In this document: piece after piece, positions 2,199-60,684 of the stretch
Layout of the letters: each line of letters starts with the position of its first letter
How positions within the stretch are numbered: position 1 is the stretch's first letter
IMG/VR virus record: IMGVR_UViG_3300009285_001861
Direction: 5' to 3' (one strand)
Source: an uncultured virus (IMG/VR IMGVR_UViG_3300009285_001861)
Lineage: Duplodnaviria; Heunggongvirae; Uroviricota; Caudoviricetes
DNA: 64,000 nt
Translations under genes and position numbers: made by a program
Notes under the pieces: model-generated
The model's database searches: none
What the model saw: the letters and a program-made list of their open reading frames with translations, nothing else
Told to the model about the DNA's origin: nothing

Positions 2199-2286
2199 TG
2201 GCCGGGAAGGGCATCGAACCCTCACGGGAAGTTACTCCCACTGGCTTCTGAGACCAGCATGTCTTCCAAAATTCCATCACCCGGCC
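2199..2286 (-). tRNA. tRNA-Leu(CAG)
   Basis: CTGGT-CTCAGAA-GCCAG; long variable arm. Confidence 0.9.
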
Positions 2287-2318
2287 AAGCTACCTACTTG
2301 CTGCCGGGGACCTCAGAC

Positions 2319-2408
2319 CTACGCACGAGTGCATAAATCCACCCCGGCACAGCTAAGCAATAGCTCTAGCTTCAGGCTCGGAATGGAGTTGGTTGCACGA
2401 TCGAACAT
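2319..2408 (-). CDS. Putative Leu-sensing leader peptide MFDRATNSIPSLKLELLLSCAGVDLCTRA
   Basis: 29-codon ORF between promoter and Leu tRNAs; Leu codons CTG, CTA, CTA, TTG, CTT, TTA. Confidence 0.75.
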   Translation of the reverse strand: MFDRATNSIPSLKLELLLSCAGVDLCTRA

Positions 2409-2420
2409 GGTGTCCTGTGT

Positions 2421-2449
2421 AGTCTAAAGACGAATTACCGAGGTGTCAA
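2421..2449 (-). promoter_or_regulatory. sigma70-type promoter of Leu tRNA operon
   Basis: TTGACA-N17-TAGACT. Confidence 0.8.
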
Positions 2450-2461
2450 GGGGTGGCTGTA

Positions 2462-3138
2462 CTATTCGATCTCCAGGGCCACCATGAAGTCAGCCAGGGC
2501 CTTCTCAAAGGCTCCCCGGGTGTACGTCTTCTGGGAGTCTGTTCCCCGGCGTCGGGCCTGCTCCATGGCCACGGCTGTTTCGAGCACCACATCTCGGAGG
2601 CCAAGGTTGAACTGGTGCCTTGCGAAGGCCCGCTCCTGTTCGATTAGGGACTGGTCCTTGATCTCCCAAGGACGAGTAATCTCATTCAATGAGCGAAGCC
2701 AGTGACGGGCCGGATCATCGGGCCCTTGTACCTTGCCTGAAGAGAACTTTCGGGACTCTCGGACCCCCACCAAATCGATAGGGATGTCCCGCTTCACATT
2801 CTCGGGCAGCTTGTTTTTGAGTTCCCTCATCCTATCCTCTTGAATTCACGCCAGTGGGCGAGGTCTTCCTTACAGAAAACGTGAACCCCTGAATGCTCAG
2901 CCATCAACCACAGGTACCCATCGTCTTCAGGATCAGTAATCAAAAAGGCGCAGGCGAGAACGAACCTAGAACCGTCCTGGTGTTCGACTGTCGCCCAATG
3001 GTTGAATCGTTTGTCAGTGGCCAACAGCACAGAATTATACACCAATGCCCGTGCATAGGACTTCCTCATTTCCACGCTCATTCCCATCATGGCTAGCAGC
3101 CCAATTTGGGATTTGGATAGACTCCTGGGATTACTCAT
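2462..3138 (-). other. Two hypothetical phage genes (2462-2830, 2827-3138)
   Basis: Tiled ORFs with overlapping start/stop. Confidence 0.6.
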
Positions 3139-3727
3139 CGGGCTGAATCTCCTTCAGGTACTTCTCACAGGCGTCAATGTCCTTTTGCATCTCTTGGGCA
3201 CACGAAGTGTCGCGACTGAGGTTTTTCTGAGCCTTCTCCAGGGAGGTCAGGTCTGCCTGATCCCCTGTGATAACAGCAGAAATCGTGGAAGACCAGAAGG
3301 CGTCTGAGATAGTCTTCTTGTTCTTCTCAATACTCACCAAGGTCTCGGCCAGATCCACCTTGCACTCCTCGATATACTTGGTGAGGCTCTTGGCATAACA
3401 GCCTTTGCACCAGCACGTCCACCAACCCCGAGGGGATTCCAGGATCTCGCCTGGAGCGCCACATTCATCACAGGTACGGGCAGCGACCTCTTCCGCTACC
3501 CGAATGCGCTCCTTGACGCTTGCGGAGGACACGCCAATATACACCCTGAGACCGCCGAATTTTTCCTTCAGCTGGTGTAGGTCCCGGTCCCATCCCAGAG
3601 CAATCATGTCAGCGAACAGCTGATCCACAAGGGGAACCCAGCCATCTCCCACGTAGGCCCTACAACGTGGGTTGGGGATGTTGTACTTCTGGAGGAGGGC
3701 CTCTACCTTGTCGTCCTTGTCATTCAT
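3131..3727 (-). CDS. Conserved phage hypothetical protein (QxKEKFGGLR motif, CxxC)
   Basis: QLKEKFGGLRVY...TCDECGAPG motif familiar from large phages. Confidence 0.65.
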   Translation of the reverse strand: MNDKDDKVEALLQKYNIPNPRCRAYVGDGWVPLVDQLFADMIALGWDRDLHQLKEKFGGLRVYIGVSSASVKERIRVAEEVAARTCDECGAPGEILESPRGWWTCWCKGCYAKSLTKYIEECKVDLAETLVSIEKNKKTISDAFWSSTISAVITGDQADLTSLEKAQKNLSRDTSCAQEMQKDIDACEKYLKEIQPDE

Positions 3728-3733
3728 TCATCG

Positions 3734-4204
3734 CTAACCCTTCAGGGTAGGGGTGAGTATACCCATCACATCGATGACCATGAGTATCATATTGGCCACA
3801 TCGATCCCCTCCCAGGCAATCGCCGCCGGGGAATTACGGAGGGCAACCTCTCCTAGGGTGTTGGGGTTTTCAAAAGCCAGCCGGAACTCTTCCATCTCCT
3901 CTTGGACTCTCTTGAAGAGTTCTACAGGGCTGCATTCCTTCCATCCATCCTTGTGGTCGTTAGCTCGAAGCTTCCGTTCCATCAATTGGGCAAACACCTG
4001 AACTTCAGGTCGTAGGGATCTCCATTGGGATGCATCATGGCCCAATCCCTCTACCGTCTCACCAACCCCACGGAGCAAATTGGCTGCCTCAGTGACCCTA
4101 TTGGCCGTTGTGCTGAGGGGGATTTTGGGGAGGGCAGGAACGGTCTTGTAGACGGCCCAATTCGGGTCACTTTTGGATTTCATGGCCTGATTACTCAATT
4201 TCAA
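3734..4204 (-). CDS. MazG-like nucleotide pyrophosphohydrolase-domain protein
   Basis: EEMEEF...EGIDVAN acidic helical motif. Confidence 0.5.
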   Translation of the reverse strand: MKLSNQAMKSKSDPNWAVYKTVPALPKIPLSTTANRVTEAANLLRGVGETVEGLGHDASQWRSLRPEVQVFAQLMERKLRANDHKDGWKECSPVELFKRVQEEMEEFRLAFENPNTLGEVALRNSPAAIAWEGIDVANMILMVIDVMGILTPTLKG

Positions 4205-11391: not shown

Positions 11392-11465
11392 TGGAGTGAC
11401 TGGCTGGTTACGATCCAGCACTTCCGGGTTCACAGCCCAGCGGGCAACCACTACCCCACAGCCAC
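11392..11465 (-). tRNA. tRNA-His(GTG)
   Basis: CTGGG-CTGTGAA-CCCGG; encoded CCA; no encoded G-1. Confidence 0.85.
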
Positions 11466-11500
11466 AAACAAAGAGCCAGGGATTAACCGCCGGGTGCTCG

Positions 11501-11548
11501 TTACCGGCGGCAGGTCCTATGGGGTCGATGGGGGTTCGTGGTCTTCAT
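11501..11548 (-). CDS. Putative His-sensing internal leader MKTTNPHRPHRTCRR
   Basis: Short ORF directly 5' of tRNA-His; stop inside hairpin CCGCCGG/CCGGCGG. Confidence 0.55.
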   Translation of the reverse strand: MKTTNPHRPHRTCRR

Positions 11549-11568: not shown

Positions 11569-11642
11569 TGGAGAATCCTGTGGAAGTCGAATCCACTTAG
11601 AGAGCTTTGCAGGCTCCTCCCTGGCCGTTCGGGCAAGGATTC
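11569..11642 (-). tRNA. tRNA-Cys(GCA)
   Basis: GAGC-CTGCAAA-GCTC; U73; CCA. Confidence 0.88.
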
Positions 11643-11644
11643 AT

Positions 11645-11729
11645 TGGTGGAGTGTCCGGAAATCGAAGCCGGGCTGGCAGTGCCTCCCGGTTTACAGCCG
11701 GGACCCTTTCCACTCAGGTGCAACACTCC
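11645..11729 (-). tRNA. tRNA-Tyr(GTA)
   Basis: CCCGG-CTGTAAA-CCGGG; variable arm; CCA. Confidence 0.88.
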
Positions 11730-11763
11730 GTATATCGCGAAACTCGGCCGTCAGCCGACGCGA

Positions 11764-11796
11764 TCAATAACAGTGGTGATGCAGATGCTGGTTCAT
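11764..11796 (-). CDS. Putative His/Cys/Tyr-sensing leader peptide MNQHLHHHCY
   Basis: ATG AAC CAG CAT CTG CAT CAC CAC TGT TAT TGA upstream of Tyr-Cys-His tRNAs. Confidence 0.8.
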   Translation of the reverse strand: MNQHLHHHCY

Positions 11797-13654: not shown

Positions 13655-13684
13655 GGTACCTATGGATTCTGGATCATTTGAGGG

Positions 13685-13757
13685 TGGAGCCAGCGAAATT
13701 CGAATTCGCAACTTCCAGCTTGCAAGGCTAGCACTCTGCCAATTGAGTTATGGCCCC
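13685..13757 (-). tRNA. tRNA-Ala(TGC)
   Basis: G3-U70 pair; loop CTTGCAA. Confidence 0.92.
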
Positions 13758-13780
13758 AAACGAAACGAGAAACGAAACAG

Positions 13781-13855
13781 TCGGGGAGACTGGATTCGAA
13801 CCAGCGACCCTCCGGTTCCAAGCCGGATACTCTAACCAGACTGAGCTACTCCCCG
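13781..13855 (-). tRNA. tRNA-Pro(TGG)
   Basis: CGGGGAG acceptor; loop CTTGGAA. Confidence 0.93.
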
Positions 13856-13905: not shown

Positions 13906-14001
13906 TTAGGCTGCGGGCGGGGCGGCTGGACCCACGCACGCCACCACGCAAGCGGCTGTCGCCGCTGGTGCTGTGTTGGTGCTGTGGGTCGAGAGGTTCA
14001 T
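13906..14001 (-). CDS. Putative Ala/Pro-sensing leader MNLSTHSTNTAPAATAACVVACVGPAAPPAA
   Basis: 10 Ala + 4 Pro in 31 codons, between promoter and Pro-Ala tRNAs. Confidence 0.78.
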   Translation of the reverse strand: MNLSTHSTNTAPAATAACVVACVGPAAPPAA

Positions 14002-14010: not shown

Positions 14011-14038
14011 AGTATAGTGACAGGTTATAGGATGTCAA
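14011..14038 (-). promoter_or_regulatory. sigma70-type promoter of Pro-Ala operon
   Basis: TTGACA-N16-TATACT. Confidence 0.78.
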
Positions 14039-25753: not shown

Positions 25754-25827
25754 TGGTTCGTGGCGCGGGTATCGATCCCGCCTCTCTAGGGTCAAAGCCT
25801 AGCGTCTTGCCAATGGACCAGCCACGA
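25754..25827 (-). tRNA. tRNA-Gln(TTG)
   Basis: CTAGG-CTTTGAC-CCTAG; CCA. Confidence 0.87.
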
Positions 25828-25831
25828 ATAG

Positions 25832-25902
25832 TTCGCGGGCGTGGAGTCGGACCACGATACGAGGCTTCAGAGACCTCTGCTCGGCCGTTGAGCTACCCGC
25901 GA
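25832..25902 (-). tRNA. tRNA-Gln(CTG)
   Basis: GAGGT-CTCTGAA-GCCTC. Confidence 0.87.
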
Positions 25903-25929: not shown

Positions 25930-26349
25930 TCACTGCTGCTGTTGCTGGGGTTGCTGGCGGGGTTGTAGGGTGACGATCCCTAGCGTAGCGGATTTGGAGT
26001 TCGCACGGTGCCCTGCACCCAACCCCGTAAGGGAGGCATCGGTGCTGCACCAAAGTGGACCAAGGGAATTCATTGAGTGCGCCGGACCTGGATCGAACAG
26101 GTATGTCTCCCTCTTCAGGGGAGTGCATGGACCACCACTGCCACCGACGCGAACGCCAAGGCGCCGCCCGGTAAACTTGTCTGTGGATCCAGTGCTCATA
26201 GTGCGCGAGGCCGGGTACGATCCGGCGACTTCTCGATTATCGGTCGAGTATTCTTCCACTGAATTACCCGCGCATGCTGCGTCAGCTGCCATCGTCGAAG
26301 CGATGGCGCCGGTAATGCACGGGCTAGCAATGTGGAGGGAGGGGTTCAT
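25930..26349 (-). CDS. Leader/read-through ORF spanning tRNA-Ile and tRNA-Phe, ending QPRQQPQQQQQ before Gln tRNAs (internal ATGs at 26199, 26073)
   Basis: 139 open codons starting just after the promoter; Ile x3, Phe, Gln x8 each placed before the cognate tRNA. Confidence 0.7.
   Translation of the reverse strand: MNPSLHIASPCITGAIASTMAADAACAGNSVEEYSTDNREVAGSYPASRTMSTGSTDKFTGRRLGVRVGGSGGPCTPLKRETYLFDPGPAHSMNSLGPLWCSTDASLTGLGAGHRANSKSATLGIVTLQPRQQPQQQQQ
26078..26150 (-). tRNA. tRNA-Phe(GAA)
   Basis: CTCCC-CTGAAGA-GGGAG. Confidence 0.85.
26202..26273 (-). tRNA. tRNA-Ile(GAT)
   Basis: CTCGA-CCGATAA-TCGAG (C33). Confidence 0.85.
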
Positions 26350-26367: not shown

Positions 26368-26396
26368 TGTATAGGGACTCTACCGTGGGTTGTCAA
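26368..26396 (-). promoter_or_regulatory. sigma70-type promoter of Ile-Phe-Gln operon
   Basis: TTGACA-N17-TATACA. Confidence 0.72.
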
Positions 26397-27495: not shown

Positions 27496-27570
<75 letters not shown>

Positions 27571-27574
27571 CTAG

Positions 27575-27645
27575 AGCCCGCGAAGGGAGTCGAACCCTCT
27601 CAGGCCTGCTTACGATGCAGGTGCCTTCCCCAAGGCGACACGGGC
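27575..27645 (-). tRNA. tRNA-Thr(CGT)
   Basis: CCTGC-ATCGTAA-GCAGG. Confidence 0.87.
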
Positions 27646-27650
27646 AGGGA

Positions 27651-27723
27651 AGCTGAGGATCCGACTTGAACGGACAACCCCCGCATTACAAGTGCGGTGC
27701 TCTACCAGTTGAGCTACCCCAGC
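27651..27723 (-). tRNA. tRNA-Thr(TGT)
   Basis: CCGCA-CTTGTAA-TGCGG. Confidence 0.92.
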
Positions 27724-27750
27724 AAACTACGATCAGTACAAGGCGCGTGA

Positions 27751-27807
27751 TTAACCCTTTCGGGTCAATCCGGCGGTACGTGTTCGCGTCGTGGTGAAGA
27801 ATCTCAT
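27751..27807 (-). CDS. Putative Thr-sensing leader MRFFTTTRTRTAGLTRKG
   Basis: 6 Thr codons (ACC, ACG, ACG, ACA, ACC, ACC); stop in hairpin GATTGACCC-GAAA-GGGTTAATC. Confidence 0.8.
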   Translation of the reverse strand: MRFFTTTRTRTAGLTRKG

Positions 27808-27828: not shown

Positions 27829-27857
27829 AGTATAGGGATTCCAACGGGACCTGTCAA
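27829..27857 (-). promoter_or_regulatory. sigma70-type promoter of Thr operon
   Basis: TTGACA-N17-TATACT. Confidence 0.82.
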
Positions 27858-34998: not shown

Positions 34999-35017
34999 GA
35001 ATTAAGCTAAGAAATCG

Positions 35018-35096
35018 CGCTCCGGGTGGGGCTCGAACCCACATATAGAGACCTCTTAGAAGGAGGTTGCCTGACTTCCAATTAGGCTACCGGAGC
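35018..35096 (-). tRNA. tRNA-Arg(TCT)
   Basis: ACCTC-CTTCTAA-GAGGT. Confidence 0.88.
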
Positions 35097-35103
35097 AAAG
35101 TAC

Positions 35104-35517
35104 TCAGACAGATATTCGTCTGAGCCTAGTGCCGGTAGCGGTAACCGAAACCGCGGTGTGCTCCTTATGAGAGAGCAACCCGCCCTGTGTACCGGCATTC
35201 AGCAATGCATCGGTGCACATTCGATTTGAGGTACGAGTAGAGAGGTTCGAACTCCCGACGCGCGGGGCGTAGGCCCGCCGCTCTTCCGCTGAGCTATACT
35301 CGCGTACAAAACCTTGCTGCCCACCGCACGGGTGAGCGGGTCGCACGACGAGACCAGCAGTTGAGGTGTAGTGATTCATGGTGCATGCAGAGAGAATCGA
35401 ACTCTCATTTCGCAGATTAAGAGTCTGGCGACCTGCCGTTGGCCCATGCATGCGTGTTTGCTCCCGAGGTTTTCCCTCGGGGCAACGCTTGAGCATGGAT
35501 GTGGTCAGGTGGTTCAT
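35104..35517 (-). CDS. Leader/read-through ORF spanning tRNA-Lys, Val and CAT, ending AGG CTC AGA CGA ATA before Arg(TCT)/Ile(TAT)
   Basis: 137 open codons from the promoter-proximal ATG; cognate codons in each spacer; internal ATG at 35379. Confidence 0.72.
   Translation of the reverse strand: MNHLTTSMLKRCPEGKPREQTRMHGPTAGRQTLNLRNESSILSACTMNHYTSTAGLVVRPAHPCGGQQGFVREYSSAEERRAYAPRVGSSNLSTRTSNRMCTDALLNAGTQGGLLSHKEHTAVSVTATGTRLRRISV
35130..35196 (-). tRNA. Short tRNA with CAT anticodon (Met or Ile2), reduced D arm
   Basis: 7-bp acceptor, GCTCT-CTCATAA-GGAGC, T arm GCGGT/ACCGC; 67 nt. Confidence 0.65.
35232..35303 (-). tRNA. tRNA-Val(TAC)
   Basis: GCGGG-CCTACGC-CCCGC (C33); A73. Confidence 0.8.
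35379..35453 (-). tRNA. tRNA-Lys(CTT)
   Basis: CAGA-CTCTTAA-TCTG; CCA. Confidence 0.87.
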
Positions 35518-35531: not shown

Positions 35532-35560
35532 AGTATGGTACGGAATCTATAGGCTGTCAA
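35532..35560 (-). promoter_or_regulatory. sigma70-type promoter of Lys-Val-CAT-Arg-Ile operon
   Basis: TTGACA-N17-CATACT. Confidence 0.75.
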
Positions 35561-41296: not shown

Positions 41297-41381
41297 AGGC
41301 TAAGACAAGATTCGAACTTGCGGCACCCGAAGGTGCGGCGGCTTTCGAAGCCACTGGGTTAAGCCTCTCCCCCACTTAGCC
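41297..41381 (-). tRNA. tRNA-Ser(CGA)
   Basis: GTGGC-TTCGAAA-GCCGC; long variable arm. Confidence 0.87.
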
Positions 41382-41406
41382 GGTCTCTCTATCTTGCAAG
41401 CGATCC

Positions 41407-41574
41407 TTAGGATCGCGAGACTGAGAGACTACTACTCCACCACGTAGACGTGTGTCCTACGCAGCGGGTCGAGTGGGATTCAAACCCACGGACGCTTTTC
41501 AGCGCCTCCACGTTAGCAGTGTGGTGCCTTAGGTCTCTCGGCCACCGACCCAGAGTTGTTTCGAGAAGAGTCAC
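41407..41574 (-). CDS. Putative Ser-sensing leader ORF reading through tRNA-Ser(GCT), ending TSTWWSSSLSVSRS
   Basis: TCT, AGT x3, TCA, TCG, TCC in spacer; stop TAA in loop of GCGATCC/GGATCGC hairpin; GTG start uncertain. Confidence 0.55.
   Translation of the reverse strand: MTLLETTLGRWPRDLRHHTANVEALKSVRGFESHSTRCVGHTSTWWSSSLSVSRS
41465..41551 (-). tRNA. tRNA-Ser(GCT)
   Basis: CCACA-CTGCTAA-CGTGG (A31-C39); long variable arm. Confidence 0.87.
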
Positions 41575-48918: not shown

Positions 48919-48921
48919 TTG

Positions 48922-48992
48922 AGCGGCGTGCGAAACTCGAATTCGCTTCTCCGGGTTGGAAGCCCGGGGCCCAGCCTATAGACCAACGCCGC
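48922..48992 (-). tRNA. tRNA-Gly(TCC)
   Basis: CCGGG-CTTCCAA-CCCGG; U73. Confidence 0.88.
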
Positions 48993-49004
48993 AAGAAAAC
49001 AGAG

Positions 49005-49076
49005 AGCGGGAGAGGGAGCTCGAATCCCCGACCTGTGCGATGGCGACGCACCGCTCTACCACTGAGCTACTCCCGC
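49005..49076 (-). tRNA. tRNA-Gly(GCC)
   Basis: GTGCG-TCGCCAT-CGCAC (C33); U73. Confidence 0.88.
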
Positions 49077-49138
49077 ATATTGGTACGCGCGCTCCGCGCT
49101 GCGGTACCTTCGGGATGTTGTCGTTCTGTGGTTTTCAT
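49067..49138 (-). CDS. Putative internal leader MKTTERQHPEGTAARSARTNMRE before Gly tRNAs
   Basis: Single GGT codon in a hairpin arm pairing with the tRNA 5' end; stop inside the tRNA. Confidence 0.45.
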   Translation of the reverse strand: MKTTERQHPEGTAARSARTNMRE

Positions 49139-49156
49139 CGTTTCGTCTTTCGTTTG

Positions 49157-49231
49157 CGTGTACGACAGGGATCGAACCTGTGACCTTGGGCTTCGGAGGC
49201 CCCTGCTCTAATCCAACTGAGCTACGCACAC
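49157..49231 (-). tRNA. tRNA-Arg(CCG)
   Basis: GGGC-CTCCGAA-GCCC. Confidence 0.9.
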
Positions 49232-49233
49232 AT

Positions 49234-49309
49234 TGGCGCGTCTGAGAGGACTTGAACCTCTAACACCTGCATTCGTAGTGCAGTGCTCTATCCATTGAGC
49301 TACAGACGC
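49234..49309 (-). tRNA. tRNA-Arg(ACG)
   Basis: CTGCA-CTACGAA-TGCAG; CCA. Confidence 0.93.
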
Positions 49310-49341
49310 ATGTACAGCTGCGTTTGGGCCAACTACCTGTC

Positions 49342-49417
49342 TGGCATCCCTGGCTAGACTCGAACTAGCGTCCTGTCCTTAGGAGGAACCCGCTCTGTCC
49401 AGTTGAGCTACAGGGAC
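49342..49417 (-). tRNA. tRNA-Arg(CCT)
   Basis: Loop CTCCTAA; CCA. Confidence 0.88.
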
Positions 49418-49423
49418 GGACAA

Positions 49424-49534
49424 TCAGGTGGTTGGCCTAATACGCCGTCGTCGCTGCACACGCCCGCAACCTCGCGCCAGCGTTCCGCCGTCACGTCCGT
49501 GGGTTGTCGTCTTGGTGTACATCGAGAAGCTCAT
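49424..49534 (-). CDS. Putative Arg/Gly-sensing leader MSFSMYTKTTTHGRDGGTLARGCGRVQRRRRIRPTT
   Basis: 8 Arg (CGT, CGA, CGG, AGG) + 5 Gly codons in 36. Confidence 0.78.
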   Translation of the reverse strand: MSFSMYTKTTTHGRDGGTLARGCGRVQRRRRIRPTT

Positions 49535-51130: not shown

Positions 51131-51183
51131 TGTCTTGGTACCTTGGGTTAGATGGTCAATTGGTTGCTGGTTACGGGAAAACG

Positions 51184-51258: not shown

Positions 51259-51268
51259 AACAAACATA

Positions 51269-51332
51269 GCGCGGAAGGCGTGGGGTCTAGTTCGTGAAAT
51301 GAGTTTAGAAGGAAGACCCTACATGGCCGCGC
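51269..51332 (-). ncRNA. Structured RNA repeat, copy 1
   Basis: GCGCGG-CCAT-GTAGGGTCT-TCCTTCTA...AGACCCCAC-GCCTTCC-GCGC. Confidence 0.7.
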
Positions 51333-51340
51333 CGATTATC

Positions 51341-53593: not shown

Positions 53594-53638
53594 GACCTGT
53601 TTACACTTTCGGTTGCATCTTGGATGGGAAATCGTACC

Positions 53639-54631: not shown

Positions 54632-54634
54632 TGG

Positions 54635-55615: not shown

Positions 55616-56445
55616 GGTCTTGTTACGCCTTGGGGGAAGGAAGTGAGAATGGCATGTTCTCCTCGTTGTCGTTCTGCTTTGCAATGGCTGCACGCAGTTC
55701 GGGCTCGAAGTGGTCCCCCCGCCATGAATTCACCCCGAAGGCCACCCCTTCCGTGTCCAGGTGATCTACGGCCAGCACCGCACAGCATCCCTGCTCGTCG
55801 AAGACCGTGGCGATGAACTCCCGTCCCTCAACATCCTTCCCGCCCAGGAAGCGCACGGCGTAGAAGGGGGCACCACCAACCCCGTTGCGATGTCTTACGA
55901 TCTCGTGAACCTTGGCTACAACATTCTTCATGGTTTCCTCACAACGCTTTCGTGACCAGTCCGGCGTGATACATTGTCATGGCTGCATCGAGTGCCTTCC
56001 CAGCTGCCTCGTGAGCCGTCATGAGGGAACGGAACCGCTCCCGCCTCACATCACTGATCACCATGCCTTCGACGGCATCCTCGGCAATCACGAACGCACA
56101 CGCCGCAAGCGCCTCACGCGCATCCCGCCACGTCTTCTTGACCATTTCATACTCGATTTCAGTCATGGGATTCACCTTCCAGCTTGTTCGGATTCAGCGA
56201 GCTTCTCACATCTCCCAGGCATGGCCAGGACCCTCGGCCCAACCGCGATCCTCCAGCGGACAGGGGCCACCCCCAGGAAAGCCATGGCCAGGGGCATCAC
56301 ACATCGAGCAACAGCGCGGCTCTTCGTAGCGTGCCTCCAGGGCATCCATGACACGATCCACCTCGGGATCCATGCAGCGACCGTCCTGGTGGCCGTAGTC
56401 AACCGCTTCTTGAGAGTGAACCATGGGGAACCTGCCTTCAATACC

Positions 56446-56472
56446 CTATCGGCACGAGAACCCAACTTTTTA
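56446..56472 (-). promoter_or_regulatory. sigma28-like promoter
   Basis: TAAA-N15-GCCGATAG before ORF 56206-56424. Confidence 0.65.
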
Positions 56473-57521
56473 GGGAAATCGGTCAAGGGCCCCTACCTAG
56501 CCCCCAGTCTATCGAGCCGGGCATGCTCCTGTGACATCGCTTCCCGAAGGGCGTCTGCATATTTATCAAACCTAGCATGCTCAATAAAAGCGGTGACAGG
56601 CCTCAGGGACCCAACAGCCCCCTTCCAGCACACAAGCCACGGGCAACGATTGTCTGCATATCGCTTGCCAGTGTCGGTTCCGTCGAAGGTGATCGAAAAG
56701 TCCCCAAAAGCCACACGGCCCCCGTTGCCTATGACCATACTTGCGGGGGGTGCTTTTTCCCATACTTCTGGCTGGCAGCAAGGGGCTGCGTACGTGCAGA
56801 GGAGCTTGCGTTTGCGACTCATGTGGTACCAGCCGAACCCACACCTGTAGGCTCATCCATCATCGTGAGCGTTGTCCCGCCACTACAGGAAACGACGCAC
56901 CAGATCCTCCCCTGGGGGGCAGGTTCATGTAGTGCTCTCGCCACGTTGGGGTTGACCTCCGCAAGGAACCGGGCGCATTCCTGGCGGCTCATGGTCAAGA
57001 TGAGGGTGGGCCGCTTGCCCCCACGTTCAATTTGGGCAAGGTCCTGGGGGGCTGATGGCATCTGCTGGGCAGCAACCGCCGCTAAAGCTTGGCCAATCAG
57101 ATCGTTTGCATCTACGATCAGGACCACGGAATCCGCAGAGGGCTTCGCTCGAAGCCACCCTAATAACCTCGCCAATTCCTTGTTGTACTTGAACAGGTGA
57201 AACCGATCCCGCAAGGAGGAGTCTACACCACCCTGCCGCCGTCGTTCCTTCCGGTTCATGCCCGCACCTGATGGCTTGGCACGACATACGAGGTACCATC
57301 CCATTCGCTGTATTCCTCAGCGGCTGCAATCACTCGCACACATTTGTTGATCGCCCATGCGATGCTCCCCACAGTTTCCTGGTCGCTGCCCTCCCCGAGG
57401 GCCGTGCGGCAGATGTGCACCTGTTCGAGGTCGCCAGCCGTAGTTGCTTCGGTCAAGAGTTGGCGGATTTGGCCGGATGTGACGGTCGCGGTCGTTGTGG
57501 TCATGTCGTATCCTCTACCCC

Positions 57522-57548
57522 CTATCGGCACGGCAAGGCTACTTTTTA
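57522..57548 (-). promoter_or_regulatory. sigma28-like promoter
   Basis: TAAA-N15-GCCGATAG before ORF 57256-57504. Confidence 0.65.
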
Positions 57549-58240
57549 GTGAAAACGGCAGCCTCCACGAACCCACACCCCTCACACTCAACCACAGATG
57601 CCCCGTCGAACCGCGGGCTGTTCTGGTAGGGCATCCTGGCCCGGCTGTCACACTCGGGGCATCGCAGGCACCCGTACTGGTTAGCCTCCAGGTTGTCCAT
57701 GTCCACCACCCCCGAGTCCCGGGTGACTTGGGGGGTGACTTGAGGGGTCGCTGCCTCAATGGCACGGACAATTCCCCGACGAAGTCTGCATCCCTGACAT
57801 GAGGGGTCGTCACCCCCCAGGTGGTAGTCGTAGTGGCGGTGGAGGCCACACTCAACCAGGGTGTTGGCGATGTCGAATGGGTTGTTGTTAGCCATGACTT
57901 TGAACTTCGTGGGAGAACTTGGCATCCCCCGGTAGGATTGGTCGAAGTCTGGCCTCCGTTTCCCAGATATCCCTACAGAAGAACAAGCAGGTCGTGTAGT
58001 CCTGGTCCTCGTGGACCACAGGCACCCGACAAAGACGTGTTGGTGCTGTCATGTGCTGGGTTACTCTCTTGAGGAGTGCAAGTTCGCTTCCTTCCAGGTC
58101 CCCCTGTGGCCCAATTCTAGCCATTCGAGGTATGCCTTGGCCTCATTTTCTCTCAACAGATCTGGAAAATAAGCAATGAAGGCTGCCCCATGGGGAGGTT
58201 CATGATGGGATGACCACGATTCCACTGACTGCAAAAGACA

Positions 58241-58311
58241 CGTCCCTGGCCAGAATTGAACTGGCATCCGAAGAGTGAGGATCTTCGATCCGACCATTAG
58301 AAGACAGGGAC
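58241..58311 (-). tRNA. tRNA-Glu(CTC)
   Basis: GAAGA-TCCTCAC-TCTTC (C33). Confidence 0.85.
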
Positions 58312-58315
58312 CTAG

Positions 58316-58388
58316 CACCCCCAACGGAATTCGAATCCGTGTTACCACCGTGACAGGATGGCGTCCTAGACCACTGAACGATAGGGGT
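58316..58388 (-). tRNA. tRNA-Asp(GTC)
   Basis: CCATC-CTGTCAC-GGTGG; G73. Confidence 0.9.
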
Positions 58389-58403
58389 ATATCACCTTAA
58401 AGG

Positions 58404-58483
58404 TGGTGCCTGTGGGGGGATTTGAACCCCAAAACCTTTGCAGAGTGAAAATCTGCTGTCCTAACCAACTAGACGACACAGGC
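58404..58483 (-). tRNA. tRNA-Glu(TTC)
   Basis: GCAGA-TTTTCAC-TCTGC; CCA. Confidence 0.9.
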
Positions 58484-58514
58484 AGGCAACGAGACGGAAA
58501 CCGATATACGCACC

Positions 58515-58571
58515 TTATGTGCGTTCGGAATCCGATTCGCGCTCTCGCTCTGATGTCGTGTAGGAGTTCAT
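58515..58571 (-). CDS. Putative Glu/Asp-sensing leader MNSYTTSERERESDSERT
   Basis: GAG, GAG, GAA, GAT, GAA; stop at apex of ACGCAC/GTGCGT hairpin. Confidence 0.78.
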   Translation of the reverse strand: MNSYTTSERERESDSERT

Positions 58572-58589
58572 GGTCGTAGTCTAGGCGAC

Positions 58590-58617
58590 AGTATAGGGAG
58601 GAAAACGAAGCTGTCAA
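58590..58617 (-). promoter_or_regulatory. sigma70-type promoter of Glu-Asp-Glu operon
   Basis: TTGACA-N16-TATACT. Confidence 0.78.
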
Positions 58618-59352
58618 GGGGCTGTCAGGGGCCACAACACTGGGCTGTGGCGCAAGGCAATGTAATGCCAGTTCTCAAGCCAACTCCGGTGGATAGGGAT
58701 CCTCGACCGGGTCCAGCCATCCATCACGTACACCCAAGGTTGCCAAGAATGCCTGCCCTTGGGGAACACCGCCAACATCATCCCGTTCTTGGCACAGTGG
58801 GAGTCTTCCAGGGAATCTTTGACGACCTGTCTGGCCCTCTTGGATGTCCTGACTCGCTTGAAGGTCGGAGATGAGTCCCCGCCGGGATCGAACATGATGA
58901 GGTACATGCTAGGGCTCGATATTGACGGAGGCGTCTAGATGGGTTGGGGAGGGGATTGTGGGTCTCCGCTGATTGCATGTGGCTAGTCCCATCGCAAGGG
59001 GCAACACAATTCCTCCAATGAAGGCCACCCAAATACCAACTTTGGTTAGTCTCTTCACACGCTGCCCCAAGGCATCGTTGCTCCGAATGGCCTCTTTGAG
59101 AGTTCCTGATAGGTCCAGGAGGCACGCCTGAGTGTCCTGTAGGACCTGTTTCGTTTCTGTTGCGATTTGTACCTGTGCAGCCAACTTCCCAACCTCTCCA
59201 GTCGATAGATTGCCTGCTGCTTGTTTTAGGATCTCCTCAGGGGAAAGCAGCTTGCCCGATGTGGGGTTGGTGAACTGATCAATAATAGAACGTCCCATTT
59301 GGAATCCGGGGTGTGGGTCGGACCACTAGCTTGGCTATTAACCCGACAGGGT

Positions 59353-60438
59353 ATGTTCCCACTATACACCCCTGAAGCGTTCCAGGCAGCAAAATCTTTC
59401 ACCTTACTACCCCTGAAGTGTCAACAGTGCCCCACCACCATCTATCGGACCAAGAAGGCTCTTAAGTACGCAATCCTGAAAGGCAAGGAGAAATTCTTTT
59501 GCCCCAAGTGCCTTCCCCAATCCCAGGTGTCATCCATCGAGGTAGCCTGCCTGACTTGCGGGGTCAAGTTCTTGAAGCGGGCATCCCAATGTAAGAAAAC
59601 CCCCAATCACTTTTGTAGTCGGTCCTGTGCAGTGAAGACCAACAATGTCAAGACCCCCAAGAGGAAGGTTGAGGGCTCCTGTCGAACCTGTCAGAAGCCT
59701 ACACATACCAAAGACCGGTATTGCTCGGATTCCTGTAAGGAGGTGGCCCGTCAAATCTGGGAGGCGGAACGGGAGCTAGAGTGGCAGAAGCCCCCCGTCA
59801 AGGTCAAGGGACCCCGTAAGCCTAGGGCGAGTAGTGGATACAAGAAGATTGGAAGGTCCCCAGCACAAAAGCGGGAGGACGGGAAGGCAGGGGTTGTGGC
59901 CTGGAGGCAACGCACCAAGCTCAAAGCCATTGAGTACAAGGGAGGATGCTGCCAAACATGCGGGTACCGGAAATGTGTATGGGCTCTCTCTTTCCACCAT
60001 GTGGACCCCTCACAGAAGGACTTTGGCATTGGTGGTCGGAATCTTAAGTCCTGGGCCCGTATTCAGGTGGAGTTGGACAAGTGTGTCCTAATTTGTAGTA
60101 ACTGTCATGCAGAAGTCCATGATGCCCTGGACAGCACCCCTGATGCTAAGGCCCATTGGAGGAAACGCCTCAAGATTAAGGCCATTGAGTACAAAGGAGG
60201 TCATTGTTGCCTTTGCGGGTACCACAACTGCAACAGGGCATTGAGTTTTCACCATTTGGACCCGTCCCAAAAGGACTTCAACATCTCCAGGGTTAGTAGA
60301 ACCTGGGAAAGCATACAACCGGAGTTGGATAAGTGTGTCCTACTCTGCATGAACTGCCATGGGGAAGTTCATGCTGGCACTGCTATTTTAGACTCGATGG
60401 TAGACCGTACTGGAATCGAACCAGTTTCTACGGGTTAA
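59353..60438 (+). CDS. Free-standing homing endonuclease with two tandem HNH domains
   Basis: Two copies of KAIEYKGG.C..CGY...LSFHH.DPSQKDF...ELDKCVL.C.NCH.EVH; N-terminal FCSRSC/YCSDSC zinc fingers. Confidence 0.9.
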   Translation: MFPLYTPEAFQAAKSFTLLPLKCQQCPTTIYRTKKALKYAILKGKEKFFCPKCLPQSQVSSIEVACLTCGVKFLKRASQCKKTPNHFCSRSCAVKTNNVKTPKRKVEGSCRTCQKPTHTKDRYCSDSCKEVARQIWEAERELEWQKPPVKVKGPRKPRASSGYKKIGRSPAQKREDGKAGVVAWRQRTKLKAIEYKGGCCQTCGYRKCVWALSFHHVDPSQKDFGIGGRNLKSWARIQVELDKCVLICSNCHAEVHDALDSTPDAKAHWRKRLKIKAIEYKGGHCCLCGYHNCNRALSFHHLDPSQKDFNISRVSRTWESIQPELDKCVLLCMNCHGEVHAGTAILDSMVDRTGIEPVSTG

Positions 60439-60472
60439 AAGCCACGCTGCCCAACCAATAGGCCAACGGTCC
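60398..60472 (-). tRNA. tRNA-Lys(TTT)
   Basis: Loop CTTTTAA; bulged anticodon stem; CCA. Confidence 0.82.
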
Positions 60473-60523
60473 TCAATTGGAGGCGTCGGCGGGTTTGAGT
60501 CGAAGTGAGAAGGAAAACGTCAT
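60473..60523 (-). CDS. Putative internal leader MTFSFSLRLKPADASN before tRNA-Lys(TTT)
   Basis: GAGGT RBS; AAA codon within CTCAA/TTGAG stem; stop abuts tRNA +1. Confidence 0.5.
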   Translation of the reverse strand: MTFSFSLRLKPADASN

Positions 60524-60534
60524 TTGGACCTCAG

Positions 60535-60608
60535 CTCCGTGGGCAGGGATCGCACCTGCTCAATAGGCAGTTTAACAAACTGCTGCCGTCCTATTTGGCT
60601 ACCACGGA
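60535..60608 (-). tRNA. tRNA-Asn(GTT)
   Basis: GCAGT-TTGTTAA-ACTGC; G73; atypical T loop TGCGATC. Confidence 0.85.
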
Positions 60609-60633
60609 AAACACGAATGCACGGCTGCCAACG

Positions 60634-60684
60634 CTAGGCGTTGGCGTTCCGATTCAGTGTTCCAGGTTTCAAGAGGGCGTACAT
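60634..60684 (-). CDS. Putative Asn/Lys-sensing leader MYALLKPGTLNRNANA
   Basis: AAA, AAT, AAC, AAC; stop at apex of GCCAACGC/GCGTTGGC hairpin. Confidence 0.72.
   Translation of the reverse strand: MYALLKPGTLNRNANA

What the first reader, a model, noticed from the sequence alone, without database searches (positions are those of the whole stretch)
2280..60670. Leader hairpins sequester the 5' acceptor strand of the next tRNA, suggesting control at folding/processing rather than termination
Seen by manual pairing: the cognate codons sit in or next to a 5' arm whose partner reaches or includes tRNA position +1. Ile: CCCGTGCAT/ATGCGCGGG (entire acceptor 5' strand). Lys(CTT): CATGC/GCATG. Pro: CGTGGGTC/GACTCACG. 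Asn: GGAACAC/GTGTTTTCC. Val: CTCG-TCGTGC/GTACG-CGAG. Gly: CCCG..GGTAC/GTACC..CGGG. Phe: ACCG/CGGT. Gln: CCCGC/GCGGG. Leu: AAGCTA/TAGCTT abutting +1. Stop codons often sit at the hairpin apex (Asn, Glu, Ser, Thr). Most hairpins lack a long U tract, so they are not typical intrinsic terminators. Inference: a ribosome stalled on hungry codons masks the 5' arm, letting the cloverleaf form for RNase P cleavage; otherwise the precursor is misfolded and degraded.
Basis: partly seen in the sequence, partly recalled or inferred. Interest (0 to 1): 0.9.

Follow-up and report, generated by a model that had tools for sequence, protein, structure and literature searches.

The report
Ribosome-sensing leaders before phage tRNA genes
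In a 485-kb groundwater phage, most groups of tRNA genes are preceded by a tiny gene packed with the codons those tRNAs read, ending in a hairpin predicted to bury the start of the first tRNA; this looks like an undescribed supply-on-demand switch for tRNAs, but how it works is still open.

Summary
The window is part of an uncultured 485-kb phage. It holds 35 tRNA genes, all on the minus strand and grouped by amino acid. Most groups follow a short ORF enriched in codons for the downstream tRNAs: 10 of 18 leaders at P<0.05, and 0 of 20,000 permutations reach the observed score. Four of the genome's six consensus sigma-70 promoters sit just upstream of such ORFs.

The hairpins are real. Eight of 19 have z<=-2, and the stop codon lies within 6 nt of a hairpin loop in 10 of 12.

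Capture of the tRNA 5' acceptor strand by its own leader is predicted in 13 of 19 minimum-energy folds. It exceeds swapped leaders (0.54 vs 0.32, p=0.0004) and six other tRNA arrays (0.07-0.33). Plain complementarity to acceptor bases 1-7 is not above background (p=0.31). The best codon-enriched leaders (Thr, Gln, Ser, Asn) leave the acceptor free.

A ribosome-gated block on tRNA 5' maturation or folding is the best reading (about 0.4). Cluster-wide (polar) control is not excluded. No relatives, RNA data or publication were found.

The parts
2421..2449 (-). Promoter-like site TTGACA-17-TAGACT before the Leu leader
2319..2408 (-). Leu leader ORF MFDRATNSIPSLKLELLLSCAGVDLCTRA*, with 6 Leu codons (CTG CTA CTA TTG CTT TTA)
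2287..2366 (-). Long Leu leader hairpin. The 5' arm holds CTA TTG CTT TTA, the stop lies 5 nt 3' of the loop, and the 3' arm abuts tRNA +1. In the full fold bases 2368-2376 pair with acceptor bases 1-7.
1796..2286 (-). Five tRNA-Leu genes (cag, gag, tag, caa, taa)
11764..11796 (-). Tyr/Cys/His leader ORF MNQHLHHHCY*
   Evidence: 6 of 9 codons cognate, P=4.6e-6
11734..11764 (-). Hairpin that starts at the last base of the stop codon and ends 4 nt before tRNA-Tyr
11569..11729 (-). tRNA-Tyr and tRNA-Cys
11501..11548 (-). Internal His leader ORF MKTTNPHRPHRTCRR*. Its stop opens the loop of hairpin 11486-11511.
11392..11465 (-). tRNA-His
14011..14038 (-). Promoter-like site TTGACA-16-TATACT (11 of 12)
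13906..14001 (-). Pro/Ala leader ORF (14 of 30 codons are Pro or Ala), inside the structured domain 13862-13999
13682..13855 (-). tRNA-Pro and tRNA-Ala
26368..26396 (-). TTGACA-17-TATACA before the Ile leader (read by eye)
26274..26349 (-). Ile leader with an ORF start MNPSLHIASPCITGAI... and no stop before the tRNA. CCCGTGCAT (26315-26323) pairs with ATGCGCGGG (26267-26275), which is -2 to +7 of tRNA-Ile. This is the strongest acceptor capture.
26201..26273 (-). tRNA-Ile
26077..26199 (-). Short Phe leader (MSTGSTDKF...) and tRNA-Phe. The hairpin runs into acceptor bases 1-6.
25930..26073 (-). Gln leader ORF ending QPRQQPQQQQQ*. Hairpin 25905-25943 has the CAA/CAG run as its 5' arm.
25754..25902 (-). 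Two tRNA-Gln genes (ctg, ttg)
27829..27857 (-). Promoter-like site TTGACA-17-TATACT (11 of 12)
27751..27807 (-). Thr leader ORF MRFFTTTRTRTAGLTRKG*
27725..27790 (-). Thr leader hairpin (z = -3.5). Thr codons lie in the 5' arm, the loop is GAAA, and the hairpin ends 1 nt before the tRNA.
27496..27723 (-). Three tRNA-Thr genes
35532..35560 (-). Promoter-like site TTGACA-17-CATACT
35379..35517 (-). Lys leader (MNHLTTSMLKRCPEGKPREQT..., hairpin 35459-35484) and tRNA-Lys(ctt)
35230..35379 (-). Val leader and tRNA-Val. The ATG is made of the last A of tRNA-Lys plus TG (MNHYTSTAGLVV...).
35017..35220 (-). Arg(tct) leader ORF ending TRLRRISV*, hairpin 35102-35125 with AGG/AGA/CGA in the 5' arm, and tRNA-Arg(tct)
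41297..41551 (-). tRNA-Ser(gct); a Ser-rich frame ..TSTWWSSSLSVSRS* with no canonical start in the spacer; hairpin 41383-41429 whose triloop is the stop TAA; tRNA-Ser(cga)
49424..49534 (-). Arg/Gly leader ORF (13 of 35 codons are Arg or Gly; RRRR run) with hairpin 49419-49446
48921..49417 (-). Three tRNA-Arg genes, an internal Gly leader (49077-49138, hairpin 49082-49108) and two tRNA-Gly genes
58590..58617 (-). Promoter-like site TTGACA-16-TATACT (11 of 12)
58515..58571 (-). Glu/Asp leader ORF MNSYTTSERERESDSERT*
58486..58542 (-). Glu leader hairpin with the stop TAA in the loop. In the full fold bases 58547-58555 pair with acceptor bases 1-7.
58241..58483 (-). tRNA-Glu, tRNA-Asp, tRNA-Glu
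60535..60684 (-). Asn leader ORF MYALLKPGTLNRNANA* (60634-60684), hairpin 60609-60662 with TAG at the apex, and tRNA-Asn (found by Rfam only)
60398..60523 (-). Short ORF MTFSFSLRLKPADASN* and a tRNA with the odd anticodon loop (ttta)
60918..61044 (-). Hairpin 60998-61044 and tRNA-Met. No cognate enrichment.

Best explanation
Each tRNA group carries its own translation-sensing leader. A strong sigma-70-type promoter, or the 3' end of the preceding tRNA, is followed after a very short 5' stretch by a small ORF. The second half of that ORF is loaded with codons read by the downstream tRNAs. The codon run forms the 5' arm of a hairpin, the ORF stops at or next to the apex, and the 3' arm runs to within 0-6 nt of the first tRNA.

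When cognate tRNA is plentiful, the ribosome runs through, terminates and leaves. The hairpin closes and buries the single-stranded 5' flank that RNase P needs. In about half of the modules the leader also captures the tRNA's 5' acceptor strand before its 3' partner has been transcribed.

When a cognate tRNA is short, the ribosome dwells on the hungry codons and holds the 5' arm open. The flank and acceptor strand are then free, the cloverleaf folds and the 5' end is cut. The outcome is negative feedback on tRNA supply, read out after transcription.

Shown: the ORFs and their codon bias, the promoters, the hairpins, the stop-at-apex geometry, and the predicted occlusion and its excess over controls. 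Inferred: that the ORFs are translated, that ribosomes stall, that the host RNase P is sensitive to the structure, and the direction of the effect.
For: Codon bias:
- 10 of 18 leaders at P<0.05, and 0 of 20,000 permutations of the amino-acid sets reach the observed score.
- In an automatic scan of 244 tRNA upstream regions from about 100 loci, six of the seven best scores came from this phage (five window rows plus the same Arg/Gly leader re-listed via L152); the seventh is the C-terminus of a long protein in L135.

Promoters:
- 4 of only 6 TTGACA-N16-18-TANANT sites in 485 kb sit just before leader ORFs.
- The best promoter-like scores in bases 1-60000 are these sites.

Start context: C at -1/-2 matches the genome's own gene starts.

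Hairpins:
- Mean z is -1.37, and 8 of 19 have z <= -2.
- The stop codon lies within 6 nt of a loop in 10 of 12 leaders, P=0.006.

Occlusion of the 5' flank:
- P_open(-7..-1) is <= 0.04 in 14 of 18 leaders. It rises to >= 0.6 with a ribosome on a cognate codon in 10 of those 14.
- A ribosome on codon 4 leaves 12 of the 14 closed.
- The window median is 0.002 against 0.118 for 88 flanks of other tRNA arrays, p=0.005.

Acceptor capture:
- Predicted in 13 of 19 minimum-energy folds.
- Native 0.54 vs swapped 0.32, p=0.0004. With the tRNA truncated to 27 nt, 0.75 vs 0.58, p=0.0005.
- Absent in six control arrays.

Precedent and timing:
- A designed sequestor hairpin that masks the 7-nt leader switches RNase P cleavage in E. 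coli in vitro and in vivo (PMC7897497; abstract, introduction and passages read).
- Inference: a single hairpin with the stop codon at its apex is closed only after the ribosome has left. That suits a slow post-transcriptional read-out better than a decision taken while RNA polymerase passes.
Against: - A gate at the first tRNA does not explain why leaders carry codons for all tRNAs of a cluster, distal ones included (His x4 before Tyr; Gly x6 before Arg).
- Neighbouring tRNAs are 2-5 nt apart and would be cut independently.
- Plain complementarity to acceptor bases 1-7 is not above swapped leaders (p=0.31). Total interaction energy is not either (p=0.13).
- The energy gains over independent folding are small, 0 to -9 kcal/mol. 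ViennaRNA ignores tRNA tertiary structure.
- Shuffled leaders close their 3' ends about as often, and high-GC control loci also have low P_open, 0.014-0.047.
- Cognate codon positions free the acceptor barely better than other codons.
- The leaders with the clearest codon bias (Thr, Gln, Ser, Asn) show no acceptor capture. Most leaders with strong capture (Ile, Phe, Lys, Val, Gly) have no codon bias and no stop before the tRNA; Leu and Glu are exceptions that have both.
- No relatives were found, so there is no covariation. There are no RNA data.
Confidence: 0.4

Rival explanations
1. The same leader ORFs act on transcription of the whole unit (polar control). One version is that the hairpin is a terminator or pause signal that works without a U tract in this host. 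Another is that the C-rich, G-poor 5' part of the leader is a Rho loading site: a ribosome stalled on hungry codons blocks Rho's path, while a ribosome that finishes and leaves clears it. All tRNAs of the cluster, and the genes behind them, would rise and fall together.
For: - Leaders hold codons for every amino acid of their cluster, including distal groups that have a second leader of their own (His, Gly). All 27 of 27 isoacceptors in 8 modules are covered.
- Internal leaders form a nested series of gates, as polar control would predict.
- The first 33 nt after ATG are C-rich and G-poor compared with 258 ordinary ORF starts (0.159 vs 0.047, p=0.003).
- Canonical terminators are not enriched anywhere in this DNA, so the missing U tract says little.
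- Some leaders end in T runs (Gln, His, Thr, Val, Asn).
- Protein genes follow the tRNAs directly on the same strand; the sigma-like gene starts 2 nt after tRNA-Gly.
- Recalled, not tested: all classical cognate-codon leader peptides (trp, his, leu, thr, phe, ilv, pheM) act on transcription.
Against: - No terminator-like site lies between any leader ORF and its tRNA in bases 1-60000.
- No mutually exclusive antiterminator/terminator pair is evident; there is one hairpin with the stop at its apex.
- Inference: both a stalled and a terminating ribosome keep that hairpin open while the polymerase passes, so a simple terminator could not tell the two states apart.
- The C-rich stretch is only about 30-40 nt, short for a Rho site (recalled).
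- Full isoacceptor coverage is expected by chance given the amino-acid counts (product P=0.12).
- Two of four multi-group clusters lack the distal codons: the Ile leader has no Phe or Gln, and the Lys leader has no Val.
Confidence: 0.25
2. The leader ORFs do sense the tRNAs, but the hairpins serve another purpose. They could be an RNase III or RNase E processing or stability site, a device to release ribosomes before they run into the tRNA, or a block to re-initiation. The predicted contact with the tRNA 5' end would then be a side effect of placing a strong hairpin next to a G-rich acceptor strand.
For: - The hairpins are long and imperfect (about 25-40 paired positions for Leu, Thr, Glu, Ser). 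By recall, that looks more like nuclease substrates than like terminators.
- Specific complementarity is concentrated within the leader itself (target -15..0, p=0.0006) and fades into the tRNA.
- Swapped leaders also pair with truncated tRNAs at 0.55-0.68.
- T-rich spacers between tRNAs look like nuclease sites.
Against: - Native leaders still beat swapped ones for acceptor pairing. Other tRNA arrays do not show this.
- The proximal flank is more closed than in 88 control flanks.
- No direction of regulation follows from this reading.
Confidence: 0.15
3. There is no regulation. The short ORFs and hairpins are by-products, for example of the composition of promoter-proximal DNA or of module duplication, and the predicted pairings are artefacts of thermodynamic folding.
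For: - 8 of 18 leaders show no codon bias.
- The phenomenon was found in this one genome only.
- No conservation or expression data could be obtained.
- Several leaders share N-termini (MN..., MKTT...), which suggests duplication.
Against: - The match between codon content and downstream tRNAs is far beyond permutation (0 of 20,000; sum Z 43 vs 1.1 +/- 5.6, maximum 33.5).
- MNQHLHHHCY* stands before Tyr-Cys-His, and QQPQQQQQ* before two tRNA-Gln genes.
- The genome's best promoters are placed there.
- The stop-at-apex regularity holds.
- Leaders are not remnants of tRNA 3' halves (native 11.3 vs swapped 11.3, p=0.57).
Confidence: 0.1

Closest known systems
Leader-peptide transcription attenuators of amino-acid operons (trpL, hisL, leuL, thrL, pheL, ilvL) and of pheST (pheM) (recalled from textbook knowledge; Rfam has models for several)
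   Same: Both have a short ORF right after the promoter with a run of codons for the amino acid concerned, placed in the 5' arm of a hairpin with the stop near the loop, like segment 1:2 of trp. Ribosome dwell time is the sensed quantity. pheM already links this logic to the translation apparatus.
   Different: - The controlled genes are the tRNAs themselves, so the sensor reads its own product.
- There is no U-tract terminator and no evident antiterminator.
- What follows the hairpin is the tRNA, 0-6 nt away.
- No Rfam leader family matches even at E<=1.
cat/cmlA- and erm-type translational attenuation (recalled)
   Same: The 5' arm of a leader-ORF hairpin is melted by a stalled ribosome, which exposes a functional site just downstream. 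The read-out is post-transcriptional and depends on a persistent state.
   Different: There the hidden site is the ribosome-binding site of a resistance gene and the stall is caused by a drug. Here the hidden site would be the 5' flank or acceptor strand of a tRNA, and the stall would be caused by lack of the cognate tRNA.
Synthetic RNase P riboswitch (Ender et al., Nucleic Acids Res 2021, PMC7897497; abstract, introduction and passages read)
   Same: A sequestor hairpin masks the single-stranded 7-nt 5' leader of a pre-tRNA and so blocks RNase P. Opening the hairpin allows maturation, in E. coli and in vitro.
   Different: That device is man-made and opened by theophylline binding to an aptamer. 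The authors state that direct riboswitch control of cleavage-site access had not been demonstrated. Here the opener would be a ribosome, and in some modules the acceptor strand itself is also predicted to be captured.
T-box riboswitches (recalled)
   Same: They sense a specific tRNA through its codon-anticodon relation and control genes of the translation apparatus.
   Different: A T-box binds uncharged tRNA directly to a specifier codon in a structured RNA and needs no translation. No T-box match was found. Here the codons are multiple and in frame between a start and a stop.

Membership tests
Leader-peptide transcription attenuator (trp/his/leu/thr/phe type) | Short ORF close to the promoter with a run of regulatory codons | tested here: met
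   10 of 18 leaders are enriched at P<0.05, and 0 of 20,000 permutations reach the score. Promoters.
Leader-peptide transcription attenuator (trp/his/leu/thr/phe type) | Intrinsic terminator (G+C-rich hairpin plus U tract) between the leader and the regulated genes | tested here: not met
   No terminator-like site lies between any leader ORF and its tRNA in bases 1-60000. The last bases before the tRNAs hold at most short T runs. Bases 60001-64000 were not scanned by the tool.
Leader-peptide transcription attenuator (trp/his/leu/thr/phe type) | Mutually exclusive antiterminator and terminator structures | tested here: inconclusive
   Minimum-energy folds show one dominant 3' hairpin per leader. 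Alternative folds under a ribosome mask were scored only for flank opening, not searched for antiterminators.
Leader-peptide transcription attenuator (trp/his/leu/thr/phe type) | Match to a curated leader RNA family | tested here: not met
   Rfam at gathering score and at E<=1 gives tRNA matches and a few weak unrelated hits, and no leader family.
cat/erm-type translational attenuation | Leader ORF overlaps the 5' arm of a hairpin that hides a downstream functional site | tested here: met
   Cognate codons lie in or next to the 5' arm and the stop is within 6 nt of a loop in 10 of 12 leaders. The flank is predicted closed in 14 of 18.
cat/erm-type translational attenuation | The hidden site is the ribosome-binding site of the regulated gene | tested here: not met
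   A tRNA gene starts 0-6 nt after the hairpin in 17 of 19 leaders.
RNase P gate by a sequestor hairpin (so far only synthetic) | The 7 nt before the cleavage site are base-paired in the off state and free in the on state | tested here: met
   This is a prediction only. P_open is <= 0.04 in 14 of 18 leaders and >= 0.6 in 10 of those 14 with a ribosome on a cognate codon. The window median is lower than for 88 control flanks.
RNase P gate by a sequestor hairpin (so far only synthetic) | RNase P cleavage actually depends on the state of the hairpin | not testable with these tools
   This needs in vitro cleavage or in vivo precursor-to-mature ratios.
T-box riboswitch | Specifier loop, T-box sequence and stem I architecture | tested here: not met
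   No T-box match at E<=1.
Rho-dependent attenuation (tna- or mgt-like) | C-rich, G-poor unstructured loading site of about 70-80 nt upstream of the regulated genes | tested here: inconclusive
   The first 33 nt after ATG are C-rich and G-poor (p=0.003), but the stretch is short and is followed by the hairpin. Dependence on Rho cannot be tested here.

The most novel reading that the evidence does not exclude
A phage gives each tRNA family its own demand-driven feedback loop. A ribosome reading a tiny ORF made of that family's codons operates a hairpin that controls access of RNase P to the nascent tRNA and the folding of that tRNA. This would be the first natural case of leader-peptide control of tRNA genes and of regulated RNase P access. 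It would let the phage top up exactly those tRNAs that the host lacks or that host defences destroy.
Probability: 0.3. Interest if true: 0.9.

Novelty: new variant of a known kind. Interest (0 to 1): 0.8.

Why it matters
Phage tRNA genes are usually treated as constitutive cargo that fits codon usage or replaces tRNAs lost to host shut-off or anticodon nucleases.

Here roughly a dozen separate modules appear to couple the output of each tRNA family to how well its own codons are being decoded. That is a direct product-sensing loop not reported for any tRNA gene in five literature searches or in the huge-phage survey (no occurrence of 'leader' or 'attenuat').

If the read-out is RNase P access or tRNA folding, it would be a natural counterpart of a device so far only engineered (PMC7897497), and a new layer of gene control for stable RNAs. 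If the read-out is transcriptional, it would be a terminator-less form of attenuation.

Either way the modules are compact, self-contained sensors of individual tRNA pools. They are directly testable in a laboratory host and could serve as reporters of codon-specific translation stress.

Tried and rejected
Search for relatives, wanted for covariation:
- blastn and tblastn against 50,697 phage records found only the same record, plus tRNA-Glu fragments or distant proteins.
- Three single-protein scans of IMG/VR found nothing.
- The 750-aa TerD-like neighbour has no relative above 55% identity among 5.8 billion proteins.
- Alignment-based scans gave 27 viral and 80 metagenome loci. Many carry tRNA arrays, but none has cognate-codon leaders.
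Only one hit, L038, lies before tRNAs, and it shows no codon bias.
- The HHCY* pattern gave 86 hits, none beside a tRNA.
- Terminase Pfam models found nothing in the genome.

Expression:
- No RNA holder is listed among 13 groundwater, soil and freshwater runs.
- Contigs of 4 runs laid on bases 25700-45699 are identical in the leaders, so there are no natural variants to exploit.

Rejected ideas:
- Leaders as remnants of tRNA 3' halves.
- Isoacceptor-level design of codon choice: coverage is 27 of 27 but expected by chance, P=0.12.
- A recoded genetic code: the standard code already gives about 133,000 aa in ORFs of 200 aa or more.
- 'Hairpin abuts +1' as a statistical signal.

Other points:
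- A crude 10-codon-window score did not separate the window from other arrays and was replaced by the ORF-based scan.
- A recount gives 10 of 18.

Full report
WHAT THE WINDOW IS

Bases 48000-62000 are 100% identical to LR745208.1, an unannotated 'uncultured phage' of 485 kb. The whole record was laid as G000. I recall that such LR74 records come from the 2020 survey of huge phages, but I did not verify this.

ARAGORN finds 34 tRNA genes in the window, all on the minus strand. Rfam adds a tRNA-Asn at 60535-60608. Only two more tRNAs lie elsewhere in the genome, and neither has a leader.

The tRNAs are grouped by amino acid: Leu x5; Tyr-Cys-His; Pro-Ala; Ile-Phe-Gln-Gln; Thr x3; Lys-Val-Arg; Ser x4; Arg x3-Gly x2; Glu-Asp-Glu; Met, Asn and an odd tRNA. 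The groups are separated by 1-12 kb of small genes. These include an RNA ligase, an RNA-repair HAD protein, NAD synthase, a sigma-70 region 4 protein and a TnpB-like gene.

THE LARGER PATTERN BEHIND THE FINDING

Reading the DNA upstream of each tRNA shows short ORFs rich in the codons of the tRNAs that follow:
- MNQHLHHHCY* before Tyr-Cys-His.
- ..SLKLELLLS..DL..* before five tRNA-Leu.
- MRFFTTTRTRTAGLTRKG* before three tRNA-Thr.
- MNSYTTSERERESDSERT* before Glu-Asp-Glu.
- A 31-codon ORF with 10 Ala and 4 Pro before Pro-Ala.
- ..GRDGGTLARGCGRVQRRRRIRPTT* before Arg x3-Gly x2.
- ..QPRQQPQQQQQ* before two tRNA-Gln.
- ..TSTWWSSSLSVSRS* before tRNA-Ser.
- ..NRNANA* before tRNA-Asn.

Against the amino-acid usage of 256 long ORFs of the genome, 10 of 18 leaders are enriched at P<0.05. 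Eight are not: Ile, Phe, Lys, Val, Arg-tct, internal Gly, Lys-ttt and Met. When the amino-acid sets are permuted among leaders, 0 of 20,000 permutations reach the observed score (43.4; permuted mean 1.1, sd 5.6, maximum 33.5).

An automatic scan of 244 tRNA upstream regions in about 100 loci of other phages and bacteria placed this phage's leaders in six of the seven top ranks: five window rows plus one duplicate via L152, which is the same contig. The seventh is the C-terminus of a long protein. By eye, the arrays in L125, L135, L142, L147 and L148 have nothing comparable.

Only six TTGACA-N16-18-TANANT sites exist in the 485 kb. Four of them stand 9-21 nt before leader start codons. The highest promoter-like scores in bases 1-60000 are at the Pro/Ala, Thr, Glu, Leu and Lys leaders.

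The 5' untranslated stretches are very short, and there is mostly no Shine-Dalgarno sequence. Genes of this phage in general have only a weak one and prefer C at -1/-2, as the leaders do.

Internal leaders start 1-20 nt after the preceding tRNA. The Val leader's ATG uses the terminal A of tRNA-Lys (by eye).

CHECKING THE OBSERVATION ITSELF

The nine listed pairings are present in the sequence. In the minimum-energy fold of leader plus tRNA, six are used (Ile, Lys, Val, Gly, Phe, Leu) and three are not (Pro, Gln; Asn stops at -1).

Leaders alone fold more stably than dinucleotide shuffles, with mean z of -1.37 and z <= -2 in 8 of 19. Their 3'-most helix ends 0-6 nt from the tRNA in 17 of 19, but shuffles do that about as often.

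The stop codon lies in a hairpin loop in 5 of 12 leaders that have a stop (P=0.052) and within 6 nt of one in 10 of 12 (P=0.006). For Thr it is 5 nt 3' of the loop.

IS THE ACCEPTOR STRAND SEQUESTERED MORE THAN CHANCE WOULD GIVE?

By partition-function folding, yes:
- The mean probability that tRNA bases 1-7 pair with the leader is at least 0.68 in 11 of 19 modules.
- In 10 of 19 modules at most 15% of 60 shuffled leaders reach the native value.
- Across all 19 x 19 leader/tRNA combinations, native pairs average 0.54 and swapped pairs 0.32, permutation p=0.0004.
- With the tRNA cut to 10, 27 or 45 nt, to mimic the time before the 3' acceptor strand exists, native exceeds swapped with p=0.004, 0.0005 and 0.0002.
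- In the minimum-energy fold, 13 of 19 modules have at least 4 of 7 acceptor bases paired to the leader. The leader partner often contains or touches a cognate codon: CTG for Leu, CAC CAC for Tyr, CAT for His, AAG for Lys, GTC for Val, GAG for Glu.
- As a control, six other tRNA arrays (7-16 tRNAs each, flanks up to 85 nt) give native values of 0.07-0.33. There native is never above swapped, p=0.10-0.98.

By simpler measures, no:
- The best duplex between leader and tRNA bases 1-7 is no better for native than for swapped pairs (p=0.31). For bases 1-9 p=0.16, and for bases 1-12 p=0.044.
- The overall interaction free energy is -3.4 against -2.8 kcal/mol, p=0.13.
- When the target window slides from the leader's own last 15 bases into the tRNA, specificity falls from p=0.0006 to p=0.11.
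- The gain of the joint fold over independent folds is 0 to -9 kcal/mol. That is of the order of what tRNA tertiary structure, which the model ignores, can contribute (recalled).

Only Ile is convincing on its own: CCCGTGCAT pairs with ATGCGCGGG at -16.9 kcal/mol, better than all 18 other leaders.

The modules fall largely into two kinds:
- Those with clear codon bias and a stop at the apex. Thr, Gln, Ser and Asn show no acceptor capture. Leu, Glu, Tyr, Pro and His show capture.
- Those without codon bias, whose ORF runs into the tRNA (Ile, Phe, Lys, Val, internal Gly). These show capture.

OCCLUSION OF THE RNase P FLANK

I used the criterion of the synthetic RNase P riboswitch, namely that all seven bases before the cleavage site are unpaired (PMC7897497).
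- Free leaders have P_open <= 0.04 in 14 of 18.
- A ribosome footprint (-18 to +11 around the A-site codon) on a cognate codon raises P_open to >= 0.6 in 10 of those 14.
- A footprint on codon 4 leaves 12 of the 14 closed.
- A terminating ribosome also opens several of them.
- The window's median P_open is 0.002, against 0.118 for 88 flanks of other arrays (p=0.005). High-GC arrays are also low, at 0.014-0.047.
- Footprints on cognate codons free the acceptor only slightly better than footprints on other codons. Leader pairing is 0.14 vs 0.23, p=0.027. Acceptor stem formation is 0.68 vs 0.63, p=0.52. Flank unpaired is 0.60 vs 0.54, p=0.13.

HOW IT MOST LIKELY WORKS

The well-supported core is a set of translated sensors of cognate-tRNA availability. 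The output step is open.

I favour a post-transcriptional gate on 5' maturation and folding of the adjacent tRNA (confidence 0.4), for these reasons:
- The hairpin sits where a sequestor hairpin is known to block RNase P.
- The ORF stops at the apex, so the 3' arm is never covered by the ribosome and becomes the free 5' flank when the 5' arm is held.
- The occlusion and acceptor capture exceed the controls.
- By inference, a lone hairpin that both stalled and terminating ribosomes keep open while the polymerase passes cannot serve as a simple terminator. It can, however, be read out slowly after the ribosome has left.

The main objection is that the leaders sense every tRNA of their cluster, including distal groups behind a second leader (His x4; Gly x6). 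That calls for cluster-wide control.

Polar control therefore stays as the main rival (0.25). One attractive form is Rho loading on the C-rich, G-poor 5' part of the leader, blocked by a stalled ribosome. The absence of U tracts does not argue against termination in this system, because canonical terminator-like sites are not enriched anywhere in the window.

The remaining readings are another role for the hairpins (0.15) and no regulation at all (0.1).

COMPARISON WITH KNOWN SYSTEMS

The logic is that of leader-peptide attenuation (trp, his, leu, thr, phe, ilv; pheM for pheST; all recalled). The defining terminator is absent, however, and no Rfam leader or T-box family matches.

The geometry is that of cat/erm-type translational attenuation (recalled), with a tRNA 5' end in place of a ribosome-binding site.

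The proposed output matches the engineered RNase P riboswitch, whose authors note that direct riboswitch control of cleavage-site access had not been demonstrated.

Five full-text searches found no report of leader-peptide control of tRNA genes. The huge-phage survey does not contain the words 'leader' or 'attenuat' (passages only, supplements not seen).

LIMITS

- No relatives were found, so there is no covariation.
- The population is clonal.
- No RNA data are available.
- All structure statements are ViennaRNA predictions at 37 C.
- The ribosome footprint is a simple mask.
- tRNA ends are ARAGORN's.
- Controls used flanks of at most 85 nt, whereas leaders are 28-171 nt.
- The host is unknown.

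Noticed in passing
window 60535-60608 (-): A tRNA-Asn (anticodon GTT by eye) is found by Rfam (48.6 bits) but missed by ARAGORN. It has its own Asn-rich leader.
   Followed up: partly
window 60398-60472 (-); genome G000:C1:222464-222540 (-): ARAGORN gives one tRNA a four-base anticodon (ttta). Elsewhere in the genome it calls a suppressor-type tRNA with anticodon tta, which would read TAA. The standard code already gives dense long ORFs, and TAA is the rarest stop (70 of 347), so recoding is not evident.
   Followed up: partly
window 23899-25056 (-) and 47034-47750 (+): An RNA ligase (PF09414 plus PHA02142 OB fold) and a 'Swiss Army Knife RNA repair' HAD-domain protein lie among the tRNA clusters. 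This suggests tRNA repair alongside tRNA supply.
   Followed up: no
window 19781-21235 (+): IS605 OrfB / Cas12f1-like TNB domain protein (TnpB-like) on the opposite strand.
   Followed up: no
window 40524-41243 (-): A 239-aa ORF with a weak endonuclease I-like match (E=1.2e-4, below the Pfam cut-off) splits the four tRNA-Ser genes into two pairs. It is possibly a mobile endonuclease insertion.
   Followed up: no
window 51341-53593 (-); loci L125-L151, L153-L231: The 750-aa protein belongs to a widespread family that some sources name TerD family or stress response SCP2 (best non-self hits 48-55% identity). In many viral contigs its gene lies within 10 kb of a tRNA array on the same strand.
   Followed up: partly
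window 11466-11548 and 49077-49155 (-): The internal His and Gly leaders share a start region, GAAAGACGA..ATGAA(G/A)ACCAC(G/A)GAAC (peptides MKTT...). Seven other leaders start MN (AAC or AAT): Tyr, Pro, Ile, Lys, Glu after promoters or promoter-like sites, and Val and Gln inside clusters. The leaders therefore look like two families of duplicated modules (by eye).
   Followed up: no
window, spacers between tRNAs (e.g. 2195-2197, 27571-27573, 25828-25830, 40427-40429, 58312-58314): tRNAs without an encoded CCA are followed by C plus TAG, TAT, TAC or TCT and then the next tRNA. Longer spacers are T-rich (Pro-Ala, Leu gag-tag, Gly-Gly). This may bear on the order of processing (by eye).
   Followed up: no
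window 41407-41574 (-): A frame starting at a GTG just after the promoter-like TAATAT stays open through the whole tRNA-Ser(gct) gene and ends at the TAA in the apex of the Ser leader hairpin. By my own estimate, 29 stop-free codons have a chance of about 0.25, so this may mean nothing. The Ser leader has no canonical start of its own in the spacer (by eye).
   Followed up: no
window 48109-48918 (-): A protein with sigma-70 region 4 starts 2 nt after tRNA-Gly(tcc), so protein genes are probably co-transcribed with the tRNA clusters.
   Followed up: no
window 34784-34972 (-): Weak group I intron match (23.3 bits, E=0.1, far below the gathering score) just downstream of tRNA-Arg(tct).
   Followed up: no
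locus L038:1065-1242 (-): In an unrelated low-GC viral contig, a consensus TTGACA-17-TATACT promoter and a 20-codon ORF starting MN, with a hairpin, end 3 nt before tRNA-Thr and tRNA-Ala. Only 2 Thr codons are present, so there is no codon bias.
   Followed up: partly
window 61100-61130 (-): Upstream of tRNA-Met, a promoter-like TCGACA-16-TAAGAT is followed at once by the minimal ORF ATG AAT TGA (MN*) (by eye).
   Followed up: no
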